Of a stretch of 59,203 nt of DNA, positions 1,322 through 12,052 are shown piece after piece; within the stretch, counting starts at the first letter, position 1, and the number at the start of each line of letters is the position of its first letter. The stretch comes from a virus (taxonomy: Duplodnaviria > Caudoviricetes), in IMG/VR virus record IMGVR_UViG_3300002143_000074, positions 1-59,203 of that record; one strand, 5' to 3'. The notes below the pieces were generated by a model. The model was not told where the DNA came from and searched no databases. It saw only the letters and a program-made list of their open reading frames with translations. The position numbers were made by a program, and so were the translations under genes.

Positions 1322-1552
1322 ATGGTTTTGACTGAAAATGAAGAGAAGTTTTTGAAACGGTATTTTAACGAATACGCAATACACCGTGGAGAAGATGTTA
1401 TTGGTGTGTTGATGTTAAATGGTGCGTTCAAAGAACTTCCCGATGGTCAATTGGTTGAATTTTCTAATAAGTTAGAAGATAAACGGGTGGAAATTGAGTT
1501 AAGAGAACAGATTGAAAAACAAAAACAACGATACAACAAAAATGAAAACTGA
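1322..1552 (+). CDS. hypothetical protein
   Basis: ATG at 1322 just after the tRNA; the track's GTG start at 1259 lies inside the tRNA. Confidence 0.6.
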   Translation: MVLTENEEKFLKRYFNEYAIHRGEDVIGVLMLNGAFKELPDGQLVEFSNKLEDKRVEIELREQIEKQKQRYNKNEN

Positions 1553-1799
1553 ATTGTAGAATTGCAAAGAAGCCGTGTTTCACTTTAATAAAGCACATTT
1601 AACGAATCCGTCGATTCCTATGTGGGTGATTAAAGCCAAGGGTGAAACATTTTACGTGAATCACGTTACGGCGAATGTTGGTTGGACAACGAAAGAAACA
1701 GTTGACAATCCTCATACTAAGGGTAGTATCAAGTTTAAGAATGTGGATGTAGTAATTGAAAACGGTGACGGACTGATTACAAATGCATCAGTAGCTTAA
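1542..1799 (+). CDS. phage hypothetical protein, in-frame TAG at 1557-1559
   Basis: ATG 1542 overlaps the upstream gene end and reads MKTEL*NCKEAVFHFNKAHL in frame with ORF 1575..1799. Confidence 0.55.
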
Positions 1800-1855: not shown

Positions 1856-1928
1856 CCTTTGTTGAAAATTAAAATAAGTCGTTTGGAAAGTTTGATAATA
1901 CTTATCTGAACAATGAAGTGAAAATCGG

Positions 1929-1956
1929 TTGACAAAAAGAAAAACGGTGATAGAGT
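1929..1956 (+). promoter_or_regulatory. sigma70-type promoter for tRNA-Cys and the large ncRNA
   Basis: TTGACA 1929-1934, 16-nt spacer, TAGAGT 1951-1956. Confidence 0.7.
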
Positions 1957-1974
1957 AAGTGAAGTAAGAAAAAC

Positions 1975-2048
1975 GGTGTTGTGGGAAAGCGGTAATCCAC
2001 TTGTTCCGCAAGAACAGGAAATCAGTGGTTCAAATCCATCCAGCACCT
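1975..2048 (+). tRNA. tRNA-Cys(GCA)-like, atypical anticodon loop
   Basis: Acceptor GGTGTTG/CAGCACC, U73; anticodon arm TTGTT-CCGCAAG-AACAG; T loop TTCAAAT. Confidence 0.7.
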
Positions 2049-2052
2049 CTTA

Positions 2053-3064
2053 GGTTAGTTGAGTGTTATACGTGAAACCTTAGATTAAAAACTCAACAGT
2101 ATGGTCGATAATACTAAAAGTTATCCGTCACCTATTGCCGACAAATAATGGAAACTATCATGAAGGGTGATTCATGACATTATTGGATTTATGTGTAAAT
2201 CCACGTTTTTGTAAATTTGTTCTTTGTAAGTTTAGAATTTGGGGGCTTGACCCCTTTAGATAAGTCATCGAAAGGTGACAAAAGAGAATTCCCCCTAACG
2301 GGAGCTCGCCATCGCAAGATGGACACTCAAGCAACTGATAGAGTCGTTGTCCTTCACTCAAAAGGTGGAGGTATATCTGACGCTGGATTGGAAAATTGTT
2401 GGTTTAGGGTAACACTGTAAACCGCATACTAACGGTACCGCCGAGCAATACCAATTCCTAACGGAACAGCCAAGAATAAGATTCAAGTCAAACATGTAGG
2501 TGTGAAACCGCAATTAAATGCTTACATGTAGAATGATAGAGAGTGGTCGGGGTAACCATGAACACAATCTTGAAATTCCGTTGAGTATCCGCAAGAGAAA
2601 GACATGGGTCGTGTCGCATATTGTATCCCAAAAGGATATGAAACGACAAGTAACGCACGACCCTGTTAGGTGCATTAATAGCTCAATGGTAGAGCAATAG
2701 TATTATACACTATATGATTGGTTCAATTCCAAGAATGAAAACGCAAAGTCGTTACGCTCAGTGAATGAAAGTGACTTAATTCCGAACTCTTAGGAGAATT
2801 CGGACGATAGACTGCTCGCAAGGCATAAATCGTTGATATTAAATCAAACGGTGCTCGCAAAGCTTAACTGTCCGCAAGACAGACGGGTGTAGAGATATTG
2901 AGTAGTTCATTGGTTGACTGGAAAAGCTACCAGTATAAAAAAGCAGTCATGTTAAATACTGATATAGGTTTCGACCATATTAGTGGATAAAATTAGGAAG
3001 CATTGTCGGCAGACGATGTATAATCTAATCAAAGATTAACGTAATATGGTGTAATCTCAACCAT
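2053..3064 (+). ncRNA. large ornate structured ncRNA (GOLLD/ROOL-like)
   Basis: ~1 kb without a credible ORF, higher GC than flanks, many GNRA/UAAC-capped hairpins and several 8-11 bp pairings between the 5' and 3' ends; lies in a phage tRNA cluster; family assignment not verified. Confidence 0.75.
2672..2738 (+). other. degenerate tRNA-like element embedded in the large ncRNA
   Basis: TA-GCTC-AATGGTA-GAGC D arm, ATAGT-ATTATAC-ACTAT anticodon-like arm, TTGG-TTCAATT-CCAA T arm; acceptor reduced to CATT/AATG. Confidence 0.6.
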
Positions 3065-3610
3065 TTAAACTAAAACCCACCCAAAATAAGACTTTTTCTT
3101 TTTAGAGATTAAACTAGAAATGCAACAATCAGCCGATTTTTTATTTTCCGATTTTAACATCTTGATAAAATCAAATCGTAACCCTGTAAAATTTCGACCA
3201 TCATATTTATTTTTAAAATTATAAATGAGATTATCAAACGATGGATTTTTATTTTTTGGTTGACTCCTTTTTTTTCGTTCCAAATCATTATAAAAAACGG
3301 TTAGTGGAGTACATGCTTTATAGTGTATATTATAAGCATTTTCGGTTTTGGCTATATCTAAATAAGTCTGTTCGACATTACGTAAATTGTTTATGTCTTC
3401 AACTATTTCTATTATTTGAAAATCGAAGTTTTCAATACCATATTTATTCCAAGCATTTTGTAAAGGTGCATTTTTATGTTTATTGTTGATTAAATCTTTT
3501 TTATGTCGGTTGAATCTTGATGTACATCCATAATTTATATTTTTACTACTACCGACGTAATATCGACTGTTAATTTTATTGATTATCTTGTATATTCCCA
3601 CTTTTTTCAT
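3065..3610 (-). CDS. GIY-YIG homing endonuclease
   Basis: GIYKIINKINSRYYVGSS, R..RH, LQNAWNKYG, EQ.YLD, YN motifs. Confidence 0.9.
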   Translation of the reverse strand: MKKVGIYKIINKINSRYYVGSSKNINYGCTSRFNRHKKDLINNKHKNAPLQNAWNKYGIENFDFQIIEIVEDINNLRNVEQTYLDIAKTENAYNIHYKACTPLTVFYNDLERKKRSQPKNKNPSFDNLIYNFKNKYDGRNFTGLRFDFIKMLKSENKKSADCCISSLISKKKKSYFGWVLV

Positions 3611-3731
3611 AATATCTGTTTAAATTTTTCAACTGTTCCATTTTTTGATTTTTCCAGTAATATTTCATTCTTCGTTTATTACGGGCCTCAATTCGATCCG
3701 ATTCCGTTAAATATTTCTTTTTTCTTCCCAT
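3576..3731 (-). CDS. 51-aa basic protein (MGRKK family) overlapping the GIY-YIG start
   Basis: Hand translation MGRKKKYLTESDRIEARNKRRMKYYWKNQKMEQLKNLNRYYEKSGNIQDNQ; colinear paralog at 18616-18771. Confidence 0.65.
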   Translation of the reverse strand: MGRKKKYLTESDRIEARNKRRMKYYWKNQKMEQLKNLNRYYEKSGNIQDNQ

Positions 3732-3916: not shown

Positions 3917-4003
3917 GGTTCTTTGGGTGAGAGGATTAAACCAGAAGTTTGCTAAACTTCCGTAGTGTAAAATCTACCATCAGTTCAAATCTGATAGGAA
4001 CCG
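3917..4003 (+). tRNA. tRNA-Ser(GCT)
   Basis: Anticodon arm GAAGT-TTGCTAA-ACTTC, long variable arm, acceptor GGTTCTT/AGGAACC, G73; CCA not encoded. Confidence 0.9.
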
Positions 4004-6551: not shown

Positions 6552-6663
6552 ACATGGAACGTGGACTTTCTACACCTTTGACGAAGCTCTAAAGTTACCA
6601 TTAATGGTTAGTACGGACGATATTTTGAGACATTTGATTAAGAAAAATTATGAGGCCAAGTAA
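6538..6663 (+). pseudogene. possible Nudix hydrolase C-terminal remnant
   Basis: LEPHKHGTWTFYTFDEALKLPL resembles a Nudix C-terminus; no Nudix box or good start upstream. Confidence 0.4.
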
Positions 6664-7351
6664 GATATTTATTGTCAGGCACGGTGAAAGTGAAGGAAAC
6701 ATAGATAAGAGTGTATATGGCACAAAGCCTGATTATGCGGTTAGATTGACACCCAAGGGTATCGAACAGTCGTTTGAGGCTGGAAAGTCCTTGGTAAGTC
6801 GAATGGTTGATAATGGTGAGGGAAAGAAAAACTGCATCATCTACCACAGTCCATATATACGTGCGATTGAGACAACCAACCACATTATTCGAGGAATGAA
6901 GCCGGATGTTGTTCTTACTAGAGACATGGTTATAGAAGAACCACGGTTGAGAGAACAGGAATGGCACTCGACTACTCCGTTGAGTGACTATACCAAACAA
7001 GCCGAGTCGGATAGAGTTGGTTACGGTATATTTCACTATCAGTTTCCATTTGGTGAAAGTTGTGCGCACGTCTTTGATAGATTGTGCGGATATGTCACAG
7101 ATATGGGACTTTCTTTTCAACAGTCGTCGAAATTTCCACCGAATCTCATAATTGTTACTCATGGTATGACTATGAGAGTGTTGTTAATGAAAATTTTCGG
7201 TAAAACTGTGAGTGAGTTTGAAACGTGGAGGAATCCACACAATTGTCAGATTTTGGAATTGACGAAGGAAAAGGTTCATTATCACTTTGATTTTGAGACT
7301 CTAAGAAAACGTCCGTTGGCTCACGAACATAGTTTACAGATTGAAGTATGA
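6650..7351 (+). CDS. histidine phosphatase (phosphoglycerate mutase family)
   Basis: IVRHGESEGN, SPYIRAIET, LREQ, GES, VTHG motifs. Confidence 0.9.
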   Translation: MRPSKIFIVRHGESEGNIDKSVYGTKPDYAVRLTPKGIEQSFEAGKSLVSRMVDNGEGKKNCIIYHSPYIRAIETTNHIIRGMKPDVVLTRDMVIEEPRLREQEWHSTTPLSDYTKQAESDRVGYGIFHYQFPFGESCAHVFDRLCGYVTDMGLSFQQSSKFPPNLIIVTHGMTMRVLLMKIFGKTVSEFETWRNPHNCQILELTKEKVHYHFDFETLRKRPLAHEHSLQIEV

Positions 7352-8634: not shown

Positions 8635-9399
8635 ATGATTAAATTGAGTAAATTACTAATTGAAGCTTTATCCCGATTGAAGAAAATATCGTTGGGAGAA
8701 TCCACCGACTCGAATACGGATGGGGATGAAAATTTTGATGAACATCCTGATTGGTCGCCTGGTAAAATTGTAGTTGGTTATGTTGATGGAAATTTGAACA
8801 TCATAGGAAGTTCCAAACACCCCGGCCATGCTGAATTATACAACGCGGGATTAACAAAAAGAATCAACTACGCGGGGAGAATAGCATGGAGATATAATAT
8901 TCTACATAAAACTTTGTTCATGTGGCAAACGACTTCTACTTCGTAACAACGTGATGCAATAAAAAGTTATTTGTTAAAAATGAACCCATCATATAAAATT
9001 GAAGATATACAGTCTTTGGCTAGTTTTGAACCAAATTCTTATGAGAGTCAAGCAGCTCAATATTTGTCGCATGGTGGATATTCTGGTTATGAACAAAAAC
9101 CCGTTAAACCGGAAAAAACCAGAACATATTCCTATGACCCAAATATGGATGCAATTGCAGAGTCATTGGTTGATATTAAGTGGATTTTAGGATATATTGA
9201 CAATTATGGAAAAGTCCATTATAAGGTTGTCAAGAAACAAGATACGGTGGATAATCACAATGGACTGTGGCCCGGACCAAAACAACGTAAGTGGAGATGG
9301 TTACCTGAAAAACCAAATCATATCAATGCCTATGGTGATGAATTGGATGTAGAGGATCAAGATGTGATATGGAGAATAATAGACCGATATAAAGTATGA
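8635..9399 (+). CDS. hypothetical protein with MIKLSKLLIE leader, in-frame TAA at 8944-8946
   Basis: ORFs 8635..8946 and 8971..9399 share a frame (TSTS*QRDAIKSY); two similar G-Y-(V/I)-D...H..L...WR units. Confidence 0.6.
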
Positions 9400-10202
9400 T
9401 TAAACTCAAAGATATTTTAGAGAGTGTGGGAATTGACGATGGTGAAGTCAAATTTGATTTGATGAATGACCATCCGAACGACCCACTCAAGACATTCATC
9501 AATTCCAAACAGAATAGATTTGAACCAGTCAGTGCATTTCGATTGACAAATGTTTACTATGCGTATCGGTTTACTCCATACACCCAACAAGTTAAAATGT
9601 ATGGTGACAAAAACGCATTAACCAGAGATGAGTGGAATGATAAAATCAATGCAATTAGAACGGATATAAAGGCGTATAAGAACCCCAATACGGTTACGAA
9701 TGTCAATACCATGATTGATACCTCGTTGTTGAGATTTGAGAGAGTTGCTAAATTATCAAGCTTCGATACCATTATCCCACTCAAATCCTCATCGGTGTTG
9801 AACGACGTTATTGCAGAAAAGATAAGCAAGAAAACCAATGCTAAGGTGTTATCAGACATTATCGTAAAAAACACGTTAAAGAACGTTAAGTTGAGTATTC
9901 CAAGTTCCGAAACGAGTGATAAGACGAAAGAATATTTGGCAACAATTGATAAACGATTCGCTAAAATGTCGGATGAGGAATTCAAGAGTAAGATGATAAA
10001 AGCTAGCTTTAGACGATATGTGTCAAACTTCCTAAAGTATAAAAACGACCCGAATTTGGTCAAAGAATATATCGCTGGTAAAAATATTCTAATTATCGAC
10101 GATACGTTGGGTGAAGGTGCAACTCTCGCTGAACTACGTCGGTTAATTATGGAATATAACCCAAAATCTATCACATTCTACGTCTTTTTGAAAGACTATT
10201 AA
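9396..10202 (+). CDS. type I phosphoribosyltransferase-domain protein
   Basis: PRPP-binding loop ILIIDDTLGEGATL; MIKLKDILE leader. Confidence 0.8.
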   Translation: MIKLKDILESVGIDDGEVKFDLMNDHPNDPLKTFINSKQNRFEPVSAFRLTNVYYAYRFTPYTQQVKMYGDKNALTRDEWNDKINAIRTDIKAYKNPNTVTNVNTMIDTSLLRFERVAKLSSFDTIIPLKSSSVLNDVIAEKISKKTNAKVLSDIIVKNTLKNVKLSIPSSETSDKTKEYLATIDKRFAKMSDEEFKSKMIKASFRRYVSNFLKYKNDPNLVKEYIAGKNILIIDDTLGEGATLAELRRLIMEYNPKSITFYVFLKDY

Positions 10203-10205
10203 ACC

Positions 10206-10604
10206 ATGATTAAATTAAAAGACCTTATACAAGAAGGGTGGATTGATGAGGTATCCACGACCACTCGTAGTTTTCGTCAAATTCATCAAGATGAAGATCC
10301 TTCTGGACAAAGACACGATTTGAGATTAACATGTGTCGAATGTGGAACTACCTCGACATGTAGATGTAGGAAACCAAAGAGAGAATTTAAGGGTTTATGT
10401 GATACGTGTGCTAAGGTCGATGAAAATAACGATTTTCTGGCCAAATTTGGAGTCGGTCCAAAATACAAAGCTCCCGAACCAGTAAAACGTAAATGTCCTA
10501 AATGTAATAAAGAAAATGCGGTTGTGAGAGAAAGTCATGCCGATACTGACATGAATGAAATGGTATTGGAATGTCCTGACTGTGGTTGTGAGGTAAGTTT
10601 ATGA
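10206..10604 (+). CDS. Cys-rich zinc-ribbon protein with MIKLKDLIQE leader
   Basis: CVEC, CRC, CDTC, CPKC, CPDC. Confidence 0.7.
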   Translation: MIKLKDLIQEGWIDEVSTTTRSFRQIHQDEDPSGQRHDLRLTCVECGTTSTCRCRKPKREFKGLCDTCAKVDENNDFLAKFGVGPKYKAPEPVKRKCPKCNKENAVVRESHADTDMNEMVLECPDCGCEVSL

Positions 10605-12052
10605 TTAAGATGAAAGATTTAGTTATGGAAGGTGCGAAGGAAAATGCTGCGTTAGATTACTTGAGTCAGTTGGTCCAAAGTGGACCATTCAAAAACCGAG
10701 TATATCTGGCGGGTGGTGCCGTGCGTGATATGGAATTGGGTAAAGACCCAAAAGACCTAGATGTAGTGGTAACGGGTGGTATTGACGCAGGCATGGAGTT
10801 TGCGAAGTGGGCAACGCAACATATGGGGAATTTCAAGGATGGTAGTAATCCTGTCTTATTTCCGACGTATGGAACGGCTAAATTTACATTATCTGGTATC
10901 ACGCACAAGGATATTGATTTGAGTGACGTCGATATTGAGGCGGTTGCAACTCGTAAGGAGAAATACACGGCTGGTAGTCGTAAACCAGAGGTTAGTGCTG
11001 GTGACTTGGAAGATGATGTAAATCGTCGTGATTTCACTGTCAACAGTTTGTTGAAAGATTTGACGACGGGTGAAATCTTGGATTTGACTGGTAAAGGTAA
11101 AGAGGACATTAAACGTGGTGTGGTTCAAACACCACTGAATCCTGATGTCATCTTCTCCGAAGACCCACTGCGTATTTTGAGAGCGGCACGATTTGCGGTC
11201 AAGTATAATTGGGATTTACCAATGTTCATGATTCGGGCAATGAAACGAAATGCACCTCAGTTAAAGAATATCAGTTTTGAACGTATCCGTGATGAATTGG
11301 ATAAGATGTTATTGACGACTTCCCCACACCGTGCAATCAAGTTGTTGAAGGTGACGGGTGTTCTTGATTATGTCATTCCAGAGTTCAAGGATGCGTATAA
11401 AATGACGCAGAACAAGTATCATACTGCGACGGTATTCAATCATACGTTGGACGTGTTATCCAACACACAATCGAATAGTTTGATTTCTCGTATTGGTGCA
11501 TTATTGCACGATATTGGTAAGACGGCTACACGAACGGTGGTAGATAACGAAGTTCATTTCTATGCACACGAAATGGTTGGTGCAAAAATGGCTGAGAAGA
11601 TTCTTACCCGTTTGAAGTATCCACGGGAAATCATTGATGCGGTTGTTTTGGGTGTTCGTAACCACATGCGTTTGAAACAGTCGGGTGAAGAAGGAGAGAA
11701 AATTTCCGACAAAGCCCTACGTAAAATTACGGTGGAATTACAACCTCATTTACATGACATTTTGAGTATTATCCAAGCTGATAACTTGGCTCATGCTCCG
11801 GGTCATCAAATGCCAAATCAAATTCCGAATATCATCAAACGTATTGAACAGTTGATGAATACCATTCCTGTTAAGGGTCAGAAATTACCTGTCACGGGTG
11901 AGGACTTGAAGGCCATGGGAATTCCTACTGGACCATTATACAAAGAGTTGTTGGACTTGGTGAGAGACAAGAGATTGGAAACACCAAACGCAACAAAAGA
12001 AGAGTATTTAGAGTTGATTAAGAACTACCTGTCAACGAAGAATCCTCAATAA
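10601..12052 (+). CDS. cca: CCA-adding tRNA nucleotidyltransferase with HD domain
   Basis: GGAVRD, DLD, RRDFTVN, EDPLRILRAARF, ERIRDEL, LLHDIGK. Confidence 0.9.
   Translation: MIKMKDLVMEGAKENAALDYLSQLVQSGPFKNRVYLAGGAVRDMELGKDPKDLDVVVTGGIDAGMEFAKWATQHMGNFKDGSNPVLFPTYGTAKFTLSGITHKDIDLSDVDIEAVATRKEKYTAGSRKPEVSAGDLEDDVNRRDFTVNSLLKDLTTGEILDLTGKGKEDIKRGVVQTPLNPDVIFSEDPLRILRAARFAVKYNWDLPMFMIRAMKRNAPQLKNISFERIRDELDKMLLTTSPHRAIKLLKVTGVLDYVIPEFKDAYKMTQNKYHTATVFNHTLDVLSNTQSNSLISRIGALLHDIGKTATRTVVDNEVHFYAHEMVGAKMAEKILTRLKYPREIIDAVVLGVRNHMRLKQSGEEGEKISDKALRKITVELQPHLHDILSIIQADNLAHAPGHQMPNQIPNIIKRIEQLMNTIPVKGQKLPVTGEDLKAMGIPTGPLYKELLDLVRDKRLETPNATKEEYLELIKNYLSTKNPQ

What the first reader, a model, noticed from the sequence alone, without database searches (positions are those of the whole stretch)
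2053..3064. ~1-kb ornate non-coding RNA with pseudoknotted end-to-end pairing
Seen: no credible ORF; hairpins GTCATC-GAAA-GGTGAC (2264-2279), CCATC-GCAA-GATGG (2309-2322), GGGTCGTG/CACGACCC (2606-2663), repeated cGCAAg and cTAACg caps. Long-range complements: AGTATGGTCGA 2098-2108 / TCGACCATATT 2971-2981, TTATCC 2121-2126 / GGATAA 2985-2990, TGCCGACAA 2136-2144 / TTGTCGGCA 3003-3011, TTAGATTA 2080-2087 / TAATCTAA 3021-3028. The first three occur in the same order at both ends, so they cannot nest and imply pseudoknots. Known: GOLLD and ROOL RNAs are large ornate RNAs found near phage tRNA clusters. Inference: an expanded member of one of these classes or a new class, co-transcribed with the upstream tRNA-Cys.
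Basis: partly seen in the sequence, partly recalled or inferred. Interest (0 to 1): 0.85.

Follow-up and report, generated by a model that had tools for sequence, protein, structure and literature searches.

The report
GOLLD RNA in a jumbo phage
This stretch encodes a GOLLD RNA, a known giant structured phage RNA that builds RNA-only cages, and the end-to-end pairings that made it look new are not kept in its relatives.

Summary
Window 2606-3063 (+) matches the whole Rfam GOLLD model (RF02032, positions 1-416 of 416, 209.8 bits, cut-off 150). Window 2219-2605 is a GOLLD 5' domain: RNAalifold on 13 relatives predicts 92 pairs, 48 with compensatory changes. A tRNA-like insert with anticodon UAU (2671-2740) sits in the GOLLD linker, which the literature already describes.

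The four end-to-end pairings are not supported:
- Their 3' partners lie inside local hairpins that fold in 14 of 14 relatives with different sequences.
- In L262 and L290, the only relatives with the same 5' stretch, pairings A and C keep 3-5 of 9-11 pairs.
- 61 other GOLLD loci show no excess of such complements.

Window 2050-2218 is an extension found in only three lineages. It consists of a leader hairpin, also found ahead of tRNA arrays in related phages, and about three local hairpins.

Verdict: an ordinary new member of a known class with a minor 5' add-on. Low interest.

The parts
1929..1956 (+). Sigma-70-like promoter (TTGACA, 16 nt, TAGAGT, with TG before the -10). It is the likely start of the tRNA-Cys + GOLLD transcript.
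   Evidence: 10 of 12 matches. This is a consensus match only. Similar promoter-like sites lie directly upstream of the GOLLD leader in L033, L262 and L290.
1975..2049 (+). tRNA-Cys (GCA), immediately upstream of the RNA.
   Evidence: ARAGORN. Rfam tRNA 40 bits.
2050..2097 (+). Leader hairpin module (stem 2058-2064 / 2091-2097).
   Evidence: The same module, GTTAGTTGAG..AAAACTCAAC, recurs right after promoter-like sites ahead of tRNA arrays with no GOLLD nearby in L033 (4619), L264, L265/L272/L273, L266 and L270. L290 has CTCGAC, which keeps a U-G pair in the stem. There is no Rfam family at E<=10 apart from chance-level snoRNA hits.
2098..2218 (+). 5' extension found in three lineages. It has local hairpins E1 (2098-2115), E2 (2158-2177) and E3 (2184-2203) and a conserved single-stranded TTATCCGT (2121-2128).
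   Evidence: It is shared only with L262 (92 of 153 aligned bases identical) and L290 (100 of 155). E1 closes with A-U, U-A or G-C in the three sequences. E2 and E3 form in WIN and L290 with unrelated stem sequences. The fold energy is no better than shuffles (z -0.2 to -0.75).
2219..2605 (+). GOLLD 5' domain, closed by helix 2221-2224 / 2593-2596.
   Evidence: RNAalifold on 13 relatives predicts 92 pairs, 48 with compensatory changes. GTTCTTTG (2219) is present in 64 of 95 other GOLLD loci, at -790 to -960 from the 3' end in the 61 loci used (positions listed).
2606..3063 (+). GOLLD conserved 3' domain.
   Evidence: Rfam RF02032, model positions 1-416 of 416, 209.8 bits against a cut-off of 150, E 6e-58.
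2664..2756 (+). Variable GOLLD linker. It carries a tRNA-like element (2671-2740, anticodon UAU) with a weak acceptor stem.
   Evidence: ARAGORN calls tRNA-Ile(tat). The Rfam tRNA match covers only positions 8-63 at 35.9 bits. The D, anticodon and T arms are present in 13 of 16 subfamily rows, and the loop reads UAU in 8 of those. ARAGORN calls a tRNA in 4.
2757..2912 (+). The real long-range helix of the 3' domain: 2757-2766 pairs with 2903-2912.
   Evidence: Rfam consensus structure, bracket pairs, 9 of 10 pairs formed in the window.
2957..2985 (+). Local hairpin X with a UUCG cap (2970-2973).
   Evidence: It folds locally in 14 of 14 relatives with different stem sequences and a bulge at the same place.
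2992..3029 (+). Local two-tier hairpin Y. The inner stem is 3001-3007 / 3012-3018 with a GGCA cap.
   Evidence: It folds locally in 14 of 14 relatives. The outer stem is in the Rfam model. The change that breaks pairing D in L262 is compensated within this hairpin.
3048..3062 (+). Terminal hairpin with the conserved loop GUAAUCUCA, at the 3' end of the RNA.
   Evidence: Rfam model end. All 3 pairs show changes on both sides across 14 sequences, with 100% of cells paired.

Best explanation
The stretch is a GOLLD RNA gene in a fragment of a large phage. The window is a virus record that CheckV rates about 17% complete.

Layout:
- A promoter-like site (1929-1956) and tRNA-Cys (1975-2049) lie upstream.
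- The RNA starts at about 2050 with a 48-nt leader hairpin and a roughly 120-nt extension of local hairpins.
- The canonical, helix-closed 5' domain follows (2219-2605).
- The conserved 3' domain comes next (2606-3063), and its linker carries a tRNA-like element with a UAU anticodon loop.

By analogy with the solved GOLLD structures, the RNA should assemble without protein into a closed homo-oligomeric cage of 12 to 14 copies. In that cage the 5' domains form the caps, the 3' domains form the rings, and the linker with its tRNA-like element points inward. The biological role of such cages is unknown. Published suggestions are enclosure of tRNAs or other cargo, or 'storage' of the embedded tRNA.

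Shown here: family membership, the domain structure, covariation of the local helices, and non-conservation of the end-to-end pairings. Inferred: co-transcription with tRNA-Cys, the exact RNA ends, cage formation, and any function.
For: Full-length Rfam GOLLD match at 209.8 bits against a cut-off of 150. The relatives L033 and L262 score 212.3 and 211.4 bits.

The 5' domain has 92 predicted pairs, 48 with compensatory changes, in 13 sequences.

The 3'-terminal helices were counted on 14 sequences. Of 34 pairs, 21 show changes on both sides, and 0 of 500 shuffles reach any of the five measures. Hairpins X and Y fold in 14 of 14 sequences.

Context fits the family. There are six tRNA genes within 4 kb, the record is viral, a CCA-adding enzyme gene lies at 10601-12052 and a GIY-YIG endonuclease gene at 3065-3610.

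The literature passages read agree. GOLLD has a conserved 3' region and a variable 5' region, lies near tRNA islands in phages, sometimes has tRNAs in its linker, and forms 12- to 14-mer cages.

Contigs from four metatranscriptome libraries of four studies lie on 2258-3041. In run X3 they show no differences and run unbroken across the domain boundary and the tRNA-like insert.

Against the end-to-end pairings, the pairs kept in L262 and L290 were:
- A: 5 and 4 of 11
- C: 5 and 3 of 9
- a: 3 and 2 of 7
- D: 7 and 6 of 8

Neither the nearest relative L033 nor L262 has a complement of 8 or more between its 5' flank and its 3' end. In 61 other GOLLD loci the observed rate is 0.377 per locus against 0.371 expected.
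Against: The window-specific complements are somewhat unlikely by chance for this one locus (P about 0.012-0.017).

One short complement is kept without any variation in the three sequences that have the extension. It joins AUCCGU in 2121-2128 to GUGGAU in 2983-2990, with 8, 6 and 7 of 8 pairs. Covariation can therefore neither support nor reject it.

The MAFFT alignment A1 is shifted by 2 columns for the window around hairpin X. Only 64.8% of cells are paired, and partners slid by +1 or +2 columns also score fairly high.

RNA-library contigs do not prove transcription, and no RNA ends were mapped. Cage formation was not and cannot be tested here.
Confidence: 0.9

Rival explanations
1. The 5' end (2074-2144) pairs with the 3' end (2966-3028) through four or five non-nested helices, giving a pseudoknotted, circularised architecture. 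That would make the RNA a new class or a structurally novel GOLLD.
For: There are three perfect complements of 8-9 nt, where shuffles give a mean of 0.46 (P = 0.0115). Partners A, B and C lie in the same order on both sides.
Against: The 3' partners are strands or loops of hairpins X and Y, which fold locally in 14 of 14 relatives with different sequences and covary. The hairpins carry stable UUCG and GGCA caps in the window. In L262 and L290, pairings A and C keep 3-5 of 9-11 pairs. Pairing D's 5' partner belongs to a leader module that is also conserved where there is no GOLLD, and the change in its 3' partner is compensated inside hairpin Y. Ten of the 14 metagenome relatives have the full 190 nt of upstream sequence and no leader. 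The nearest relative L033 lacks homology to the 5' partner region 2098-2214. The GOLLD family shows no excess of such complements.
Confidence: 0.04
2. Window 2050-2218 is not part of the mature GOLLD RNA. It is an operon leader or spacer that is transcribed and then trimmed off, or that acts only during transcription or processing. The functional RNA would then be about 845 nt, from about 2219 to 3063.
For: The helix that closes the 5' domain starts at 2221. In the other subfamily members a promoter-like site lies only about 50-110 nt upstream of GTTCTTTG. The leader module also heads tRNA arrays that have no GOLLD. The extension folds no better than shuffles (z -0.2 to -0.75).
Against: Hairpins E1-E3 keep their positions with changed stem sequences in the window and L290, and E1 does so in L262 as well. 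TTATCCGT is conserved in all three. No processing site has been identified.
Confidence: 0.35
3. The region is a different large RNA that only partly resembles GOLLD, such as ROOL, a group I or II intron, HEARO, RNase P RNA or tmRNA.
For: None found.
Against: Rfam release 15 (4227 families) gives only GOLLD and tRNA in 1900-3300 at E<=1 and in the whole window at gathering thresholds. The GOLLD match covers the whole model.
Confidence: 0.01

Closest known systems
GOLLD RNA (Rfam RF02032); solved examples are env-38 (833 nt, 14-mer, PDB 9MEE) and Streptococcus agalactiae GOLLD (700 nt, 12-mer, PDB 9L0R), as named in the passages read
   Same: It has the conserved 3' domain at full model length, a variable helix-closed 5' domain of about 390 nt, a variable linker after the first 3'-domain hairpin, a position inside a phage tRNA cluster, and many GNRA-capped hairpins.
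   Different: It carries an extra stretch of about 170 nt before the closing helix of the 5' domain, which only two relatives found here share. The total is about 1012 nt including a 70-nt tRNA-like insert. Oligomeric state is untested.
Mycobacterial GOLLD RNAs in tRNA arrays, with an embedded tRNA-Phe or pseudo-tRNA (PMC6582537 passages; review PMC12990946 passages)
   Same: A tRNA or tRNA-like element lies inside the single-stranded linker, and the gene sits within a tRNA gene cluster.
   Different: Here the element has a UAU (Ile-type) anticodon loop. It is kept across a whole subfamily, in 13 of 16 rows. In most members it is too degenerate for ARAGORN, which calls it in 4.
ROOL RNA
   Same: It is a large ornate phage-associated RNA near tRNA genes that forms RNA-only cages.
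   Different: No ROOL match appears at any threshold used. According to the passages, the sequence and secondary structure are unrelated.

Membership tests
GOLLD RNA (RF02032) | The covariance-model score for the conserved 3' domain is at or above the curated gathering score. | tested here: met
   209.8 bits against 150, model positions 1-416 of 416, not truncated.
GOLLD RNA (RF02032) | The helices of the 3' domain, including the long-range helix and the terminal hairpins, are formed and covary. | tested here: met
   The alignment to the model forms 9 of 10 pairs of the long-range helix. For the last 125 nt, 21 of 34 pairs show changes on both sides in 14 sequences and 0 of 500 shuffles are as high. 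Only the last 125 nt were counted.
GOLLD RNA (RF02032) | A separate, less conserved 5' domain of about 400 nt precedes the 3' domain. | tested here: met
   Window 2219-2605 has 92 predicted pairs, 48 compensatory, and is closed by 2221-2224 / 2593-2596. The motif GTTCTTTG is shared with 64 of 95 other GOLLD loci.
GOLLD RNA (RF02032) | It is encoded in a phage or prophage, near tRNA genes. | tested here: met
   The window is a virus record. tRNA genes lie at 577, 1038, 1785, 1975 and 3917.
GOLLD RNA (RF02032) | A variable linker follows the first 3'-domain hairpin and sometimes holds a tRNA. | tested here: met
   The linker is 2664-2756 and holds a tRNA-like element at 2671-2740.
GOLLD RNA (RF02032) | It assembles into an RNA-only homo-oligomeric cage. 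| not testable with these tools
   No tool here predicts RNA quaternary structure. This is inferred from env-38 and S. agalactiae GOLLD.
ROOL RNA | A match to the Rfam ROOL model. | tested here: not met
   There is no match at gathering thresholds over the whole window or at E<=1 in 1900-3300.
Canonical tRNA (for the insert at 2671-2740) | A full cloverleaf with a 7-bp acceptor stem. | tested here: inconclusive
   ARAGORN calls tRNA-Ile(tat). The Rfam tRNA model aligns only positions 8-63 at 35.9 bits. By eye, the acceptor stem has 5 of 7 pairs in the sequence.

The most novel reading that the evidence does not exclude
In a small group of jumbo-phage GOLLD RNAs (the window, L262 and L290), the RNA carries an extra 5' domain of about 170 nt. 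Its first 48 nt are a leader module shared with the tRNA operons of these phages. Its invariant AUCCGU (2123-2128) docks by base pairing onto the GUGGAU junction (2983-2988) of the 3' domain, a junction kept in most GOLLD loci examined. That would add a base-paired 5'-to-3' bridge, within one chain or between chains, that the solved GOLLD cages lack. It could change the cage's stoichiometry or couple its assembly to tRNA-operon transcription and processing.
Probability: 0.08. Interest if true: 0.5.

Novelty: new member of a known kind. Interest (0 to 1): 0.22.

Why it matters
The identification itself changes little. A routine Rfam scan names this RNA, and its context and embedded tRNA-like element match what is published for GOLLD.

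Its practical value is as material for study:
- It defines a subfamily of at least 18 GOLLD loci with good covariation.
- That subfamily keeps a tRNA-like element with a UAU loop in the linker, which points into the cage. This could help test the published ideas of tRNA enclosure or storage.
- A three-lineage subset carries a 5' add-on that could be used to ask how extra domains affect cage assembly.

The case also shows that several perfect 8-9-nt complements between the ends of a 1-kb AT-rich RNA can arise by chance.

Tried and rejected
Phage GenBank records: blastn of 2053-3064 found no match.

Searches for relatives that gave little:
- 22 loci were found through the small upstream protein. 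I scanned 20 of them with Rfam and none has GOLLD within 3.5 kb. nhmmer on all 22 gave only one weak hit.

k-mer sharing with other GOLLD loci first suggested that AGTTGAGT and GTATGGTC (2057, 2099) were conserved GOLLD motifs, each present in 28 of 95 loci. Their positions in those loci differ from the window, so I dropped them as positional homologues.

Rfam on 2045-2230 at E<=10 gave only two chance-level eukaryotic snoRNA hits far below their cut-offs. The resemblance of the leader to a preQ1-type pseudoknot comes from memory only and has no tool support.

Read laying: no metatranscriptome contig of the four runs covers 1400-2257 or 3042-3700. X3 and X6 both end at 3041.

Fold energies are weak evidence. 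The z-score is -2.65 for 2050-2610, -2.05 for L033 and -0.2 to -0.75 for the extension alone.

Alignment-based counts of pairing B (2-3 of 6) are unreliable, because MAFFT shifts the window by 2 columns there. Anchoring on the motifs gives 6 and 7 of 8 for the extended pairing.

TAG=Q re-translation did not create a credible ORF in 2053-3064.

I know them only from citations in the passages read and from memory.

Full report
**What is there.** The window is a 59,203-nt virus record that CheckV rates about 17% complete, so it is a fragment of a very large phage. An Rfam scan of the whole window gives one large hit. GOLLD (RF02032) matches at 2606-3063 on the + strand, over model positions 1-416 of 416, at 209.8 bits against a gathering score of 150. 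The Rfam model covers only the conserved 3' domain of GOLLD.

ARAGORN finds six tRNA genes in the first 4 kb:
- Gln at 577
- Lys at 1038
- a CTA-anticodon suppressor at 1785-1857
- Cys at 1975-2049
- an 'Ile(tat)' at 2671-2740
- Ser at 3917

The Ile-type element lies in the unstructured linker that follows the first hairpin of the 3' domain. Rfam's tRNA model aligns only its positions 8-63.

**Checking the observation.** No ORF in the region exceeds 67 aa. CGCAAG occurs 5 times in 2000-3100 out of 10 in the whole window.

Between 2053-2200 and 2900-3064 there are three Watson-Crick complements of 8 or more. Dinucleotide shuffles give a mean of 0.46, with P(>=3) = 0.0115. A longest run of 9 or more arises in 11% of shuffles. 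The sequence facts are therefore right, and the long-range complements are only mildly unusual.

**Relatives.** By blastn and nhmmer only L033 shares the window's 5' domain, at about 75% identity from window 2292 to 2967.

A 19-mer conserved between the window and L033 then found more:
- L262, and L261, which is identical to L033 over the aligned region
- 15 metagenome loci, of which 14 carry the same GOLLD subfamily

A later leader-based scan added L290. L033 and L262 reach 212.3 and 211.4 bits on the Rfam model.

**The 5' domain.** On 13 sequences RNAalifold predicts 92 pairs for window 2205-2612, and 48 of them have compensatory changes. The domain is closed by 2221-2224 pairing with 2593-2596. 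The motif GTTCTTTG (2219) is present in 64 of 95 other GOLLD loci, 790-960 nt from the 3' end in the 61 loci used (positions). The canonical GOLLD body in the window therefore starts at about 2219.

**The end-to-end pairings.** Four lines of evidence speak against them.

1. The 3' partners are not free. TCGACCATATT (2971-2981) is the loop and 3' strand of hairpin X, which is capped by UUCG. TTGTCGGCA (3003-3011) is the 5' strand and GGCA loop of the inner tier of hairpin Y. TAATCTAA (3021-3028) overlaps the 3' strand of Y's outer stem, which is part of the Rfam model. Both hairpins fold locally, with the same architecture and quite different sequences, in 14 of 14 subfamily members. A pair count on the MAFFT alignment of the last 125 nt gives 21 of 34 pairs with changes on both sides, and 0 of 500 shuffles are as high on any measure. 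Only 64.8% of cells are paired, because MAFFT shifts the window by two columns around hairpin X.

2. Only L262 and L290 share the 5' partner region. The pairs they keep are listed below. L262's own 5' extension has no complement of 7 or more to its own 3' end. L290 has two 8-mers at unrelated places.

| Pairing | L262 | L290 |
|---|---|---|
| A | 5 of 11 | 4 of 11 |
| C | 5 of 9 | 3 of 9 |
| a (2074-2080 / 2966-2972) | 3 of 7 | 2 of 7 |
| D | 7 of 8 | 6 of 8 |

3. Pairing D's 5' partner lies in a leader module that is equally conserved where no GOLLD follows (see the next section). The base change in D's 3' partner in L262 is compensated inside hairpin Y, not in the 5' partner.

4. In 61 other GOLLD loci, complements of 8 or more between the 170 nt upstream of GTTCTTTG and the last 165 nt occur at 0.377 per locus against 0.371 expected. 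L033 has none. The window is the only one of the 62 loci (itself included) with three, which is about what one locus at P about 0.017 among 62 would give.

One item stays open. An extended version of pairing B joins TTATCCGT (2121-2128) to GTGGATAA (2983-2990) and keeps 8, 6 and 7 of 8 pairs in the three sequences. Its six-base core never varies, so covariation cannot test it. GTGGATA is conserved in most GOLLD loci that lack the extension, so its conservation does not depend on this partner.

**The 5' extension.** In L262 and L290 a sigma-70-like promoter (TTGAC[G/A], 16-17 nt, TATAGT) ends 7 nt before the sequence homologous to window 2052. This is read directly from the sequences printed. 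In the window the comparable promoter-like site lies upstream of tRNA-Cys (1929-1956). This is inference.

The first 48 nt form a hairpin (2058-2064 / 2091-2097). Its sequence, GTTAGTTGAG..AAAACTCAAC, recurs directly after promoter-like sites ahead of tRNA arrays in L033 (position 4619), L264, L265/L272/L273, L266 and L270, with no GOLLD nearby. The window has only this one copy.

Downstream lie hairpins E1 (2098-2115), E2 (2158-2177) and E3 (2184-2203). E1 closes with A-U, U-A or G-C in the three sequences. E2 and E3 recur in L290 with unrelated stems. The extension folds no better than shuffles, though (z -0.2 to -0.75).

None of the 14 metagenome relatives shows this leader in the up to 190 nt of upstream sequence available. 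Four of them are cut by contig ends. Most have a promoter-like site 50-110 nt upstream of GTTCTTTG instead. Whether the extension stays on the mature RNA is open.

**The embedded tRNA-like element.** L033 has a tRNA-Thr(UGU) at the same linker position, with the same D and T arms. Across 16 subfamily rows, 13 keep the D, anticodon and T arms, and 8 of those have a UAU loop. Three (L262, L279 and L284) have only a remnant. ARAGORN calls a tRNA in four: the window and L288 as Ile(tat), L033 as Thr(tgt), and L286 as Asp(atc). tRNAs or pseudo-tRNAs in the GOLLD linker are already described (passages).

**Expression.** Ten of the 20 public runs that hold part of the stretch are on record as RNA. 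I laid four metatranscriptome runs from four studies, and their contigs lie on 2258-3041. In X3 the contigs show no differences from the window, and one contig spans 2409-3041 unbroken across the domain boundary and the tRNA-like insert. Contigs in an RNA library are compatible with a stable transcript but do not prove transcription or show its ends.

**How it most likely works.** According to the passages read, GOLLD RNAs fold without protein into closed cages. env-38 forms a 14-mer and S. agalactiae GOLLD forms a 12-mer. The 5' domains form the caps, the 3' domains form the rings, and the disordered linker faces inward. Expression rises during phage lysis, and the function is unknown. The window's RNA has every sequence-level feature of the family, so the same assembly is the best inference, with the UAU tRNA-like element displayed inside the cage. 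None of this can be tested with the tools here.

**Verdict.** This is a GOLLD RNA: a new member of a known class with a minor 5' add-on found in only three lineages. Interest is low.

Noticed in passing
window 1512-1799 (+) and tRNA 1785-1857; also L033 and L239-L245: A small conserved ORF (..FHFNK..) has an in-frame TAG 2-5 codons after its ATG (MKTEL-TAG-NCKE in the window). This is seen in 9 loci, and every one of these in-frame stops is TAG. In 4 of them (window, L033, L239, L240) a CTA-anticodon suppressor tRNA gene overlaps the ORF's last 14 nt, and in L245 one lies 60 nt downstream. Seven homologous loci without the TAG are not followed by a suppressor: six have tRNA-Cys next and L246 has no tRNA listed within 150 nt. 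This looks like a gene whose translation depends on amber suppression.
   Followed up: partly
whole window: TAG is almost never used as a stop codon. Among 59 non-overlapping ATG-started ORFs of 100 aa or more, 41 end in TAA, 17 in TGA and 1 in TAG. Reading TAG as sense lengthens ORFs only modestly. Together with the suppressor tRNA, this hints at TAG avoidance or partial reassignment.
   Followed up: partly
window 2050-2097; L033 4617-4655; L264 9809-9847; L265 6579-6617; L266 5377-5422 (-); L270 8650-8686 (-): A conserved leader element of about 45 nt, (U/A)AGGUUAGUUGAG..CCUUAGAUUAAAAACUCAAC, sits at the predicted 5' end of tRNA-array and GOLLD transcripts in related jumbo phages. It has no Rfam family. 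It could form a hairpin or an H-type pseudoknot. Its function is unknown.
   Followed up: partly
window 2671-2740 and the same linker position in L275-L289, L033: The tRNA-like insert of the GOLLD linker is conserved across the subfamily. Most copies have a UAU loop and a shortened acceptor stem, and ARAGORN calls a tRNA in 4 of the 16 rows. L033 carries UGU and L286 carries AUC on the same scaffold, so the anticodon arm has been exchanged.
   Followed up: partly
window 3065-3610 (-): A GIY-YIG endonuclease domain protein is encoded convergently, with its stop codon one base after the end of the GOLLD match (Pfam PF01541, E 1.8e-07).
   Followed up: no
window 10601-12052 (+), 6650-7351 (+), 9396-10202 (+): Nearby genes encode a CCA-adding enzyme type protein (PolyA_pol head, RNA-binding and HD domains), a histidine phosphatase and a phosphoribosyltransferase-domain protein. 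The CCA-adding enzyme suggests a tRNA-related gene neighbourhood.
   Followed up: no
L245 6-355 and L244 4641-4726: Related jumbo-phage loci carry a full-length tmRNA match (92.1 bits) and a match to the tRNA-Sec model (53.4 bits, cut-off 47) inside their tRNA arrays.
   Followed up: no
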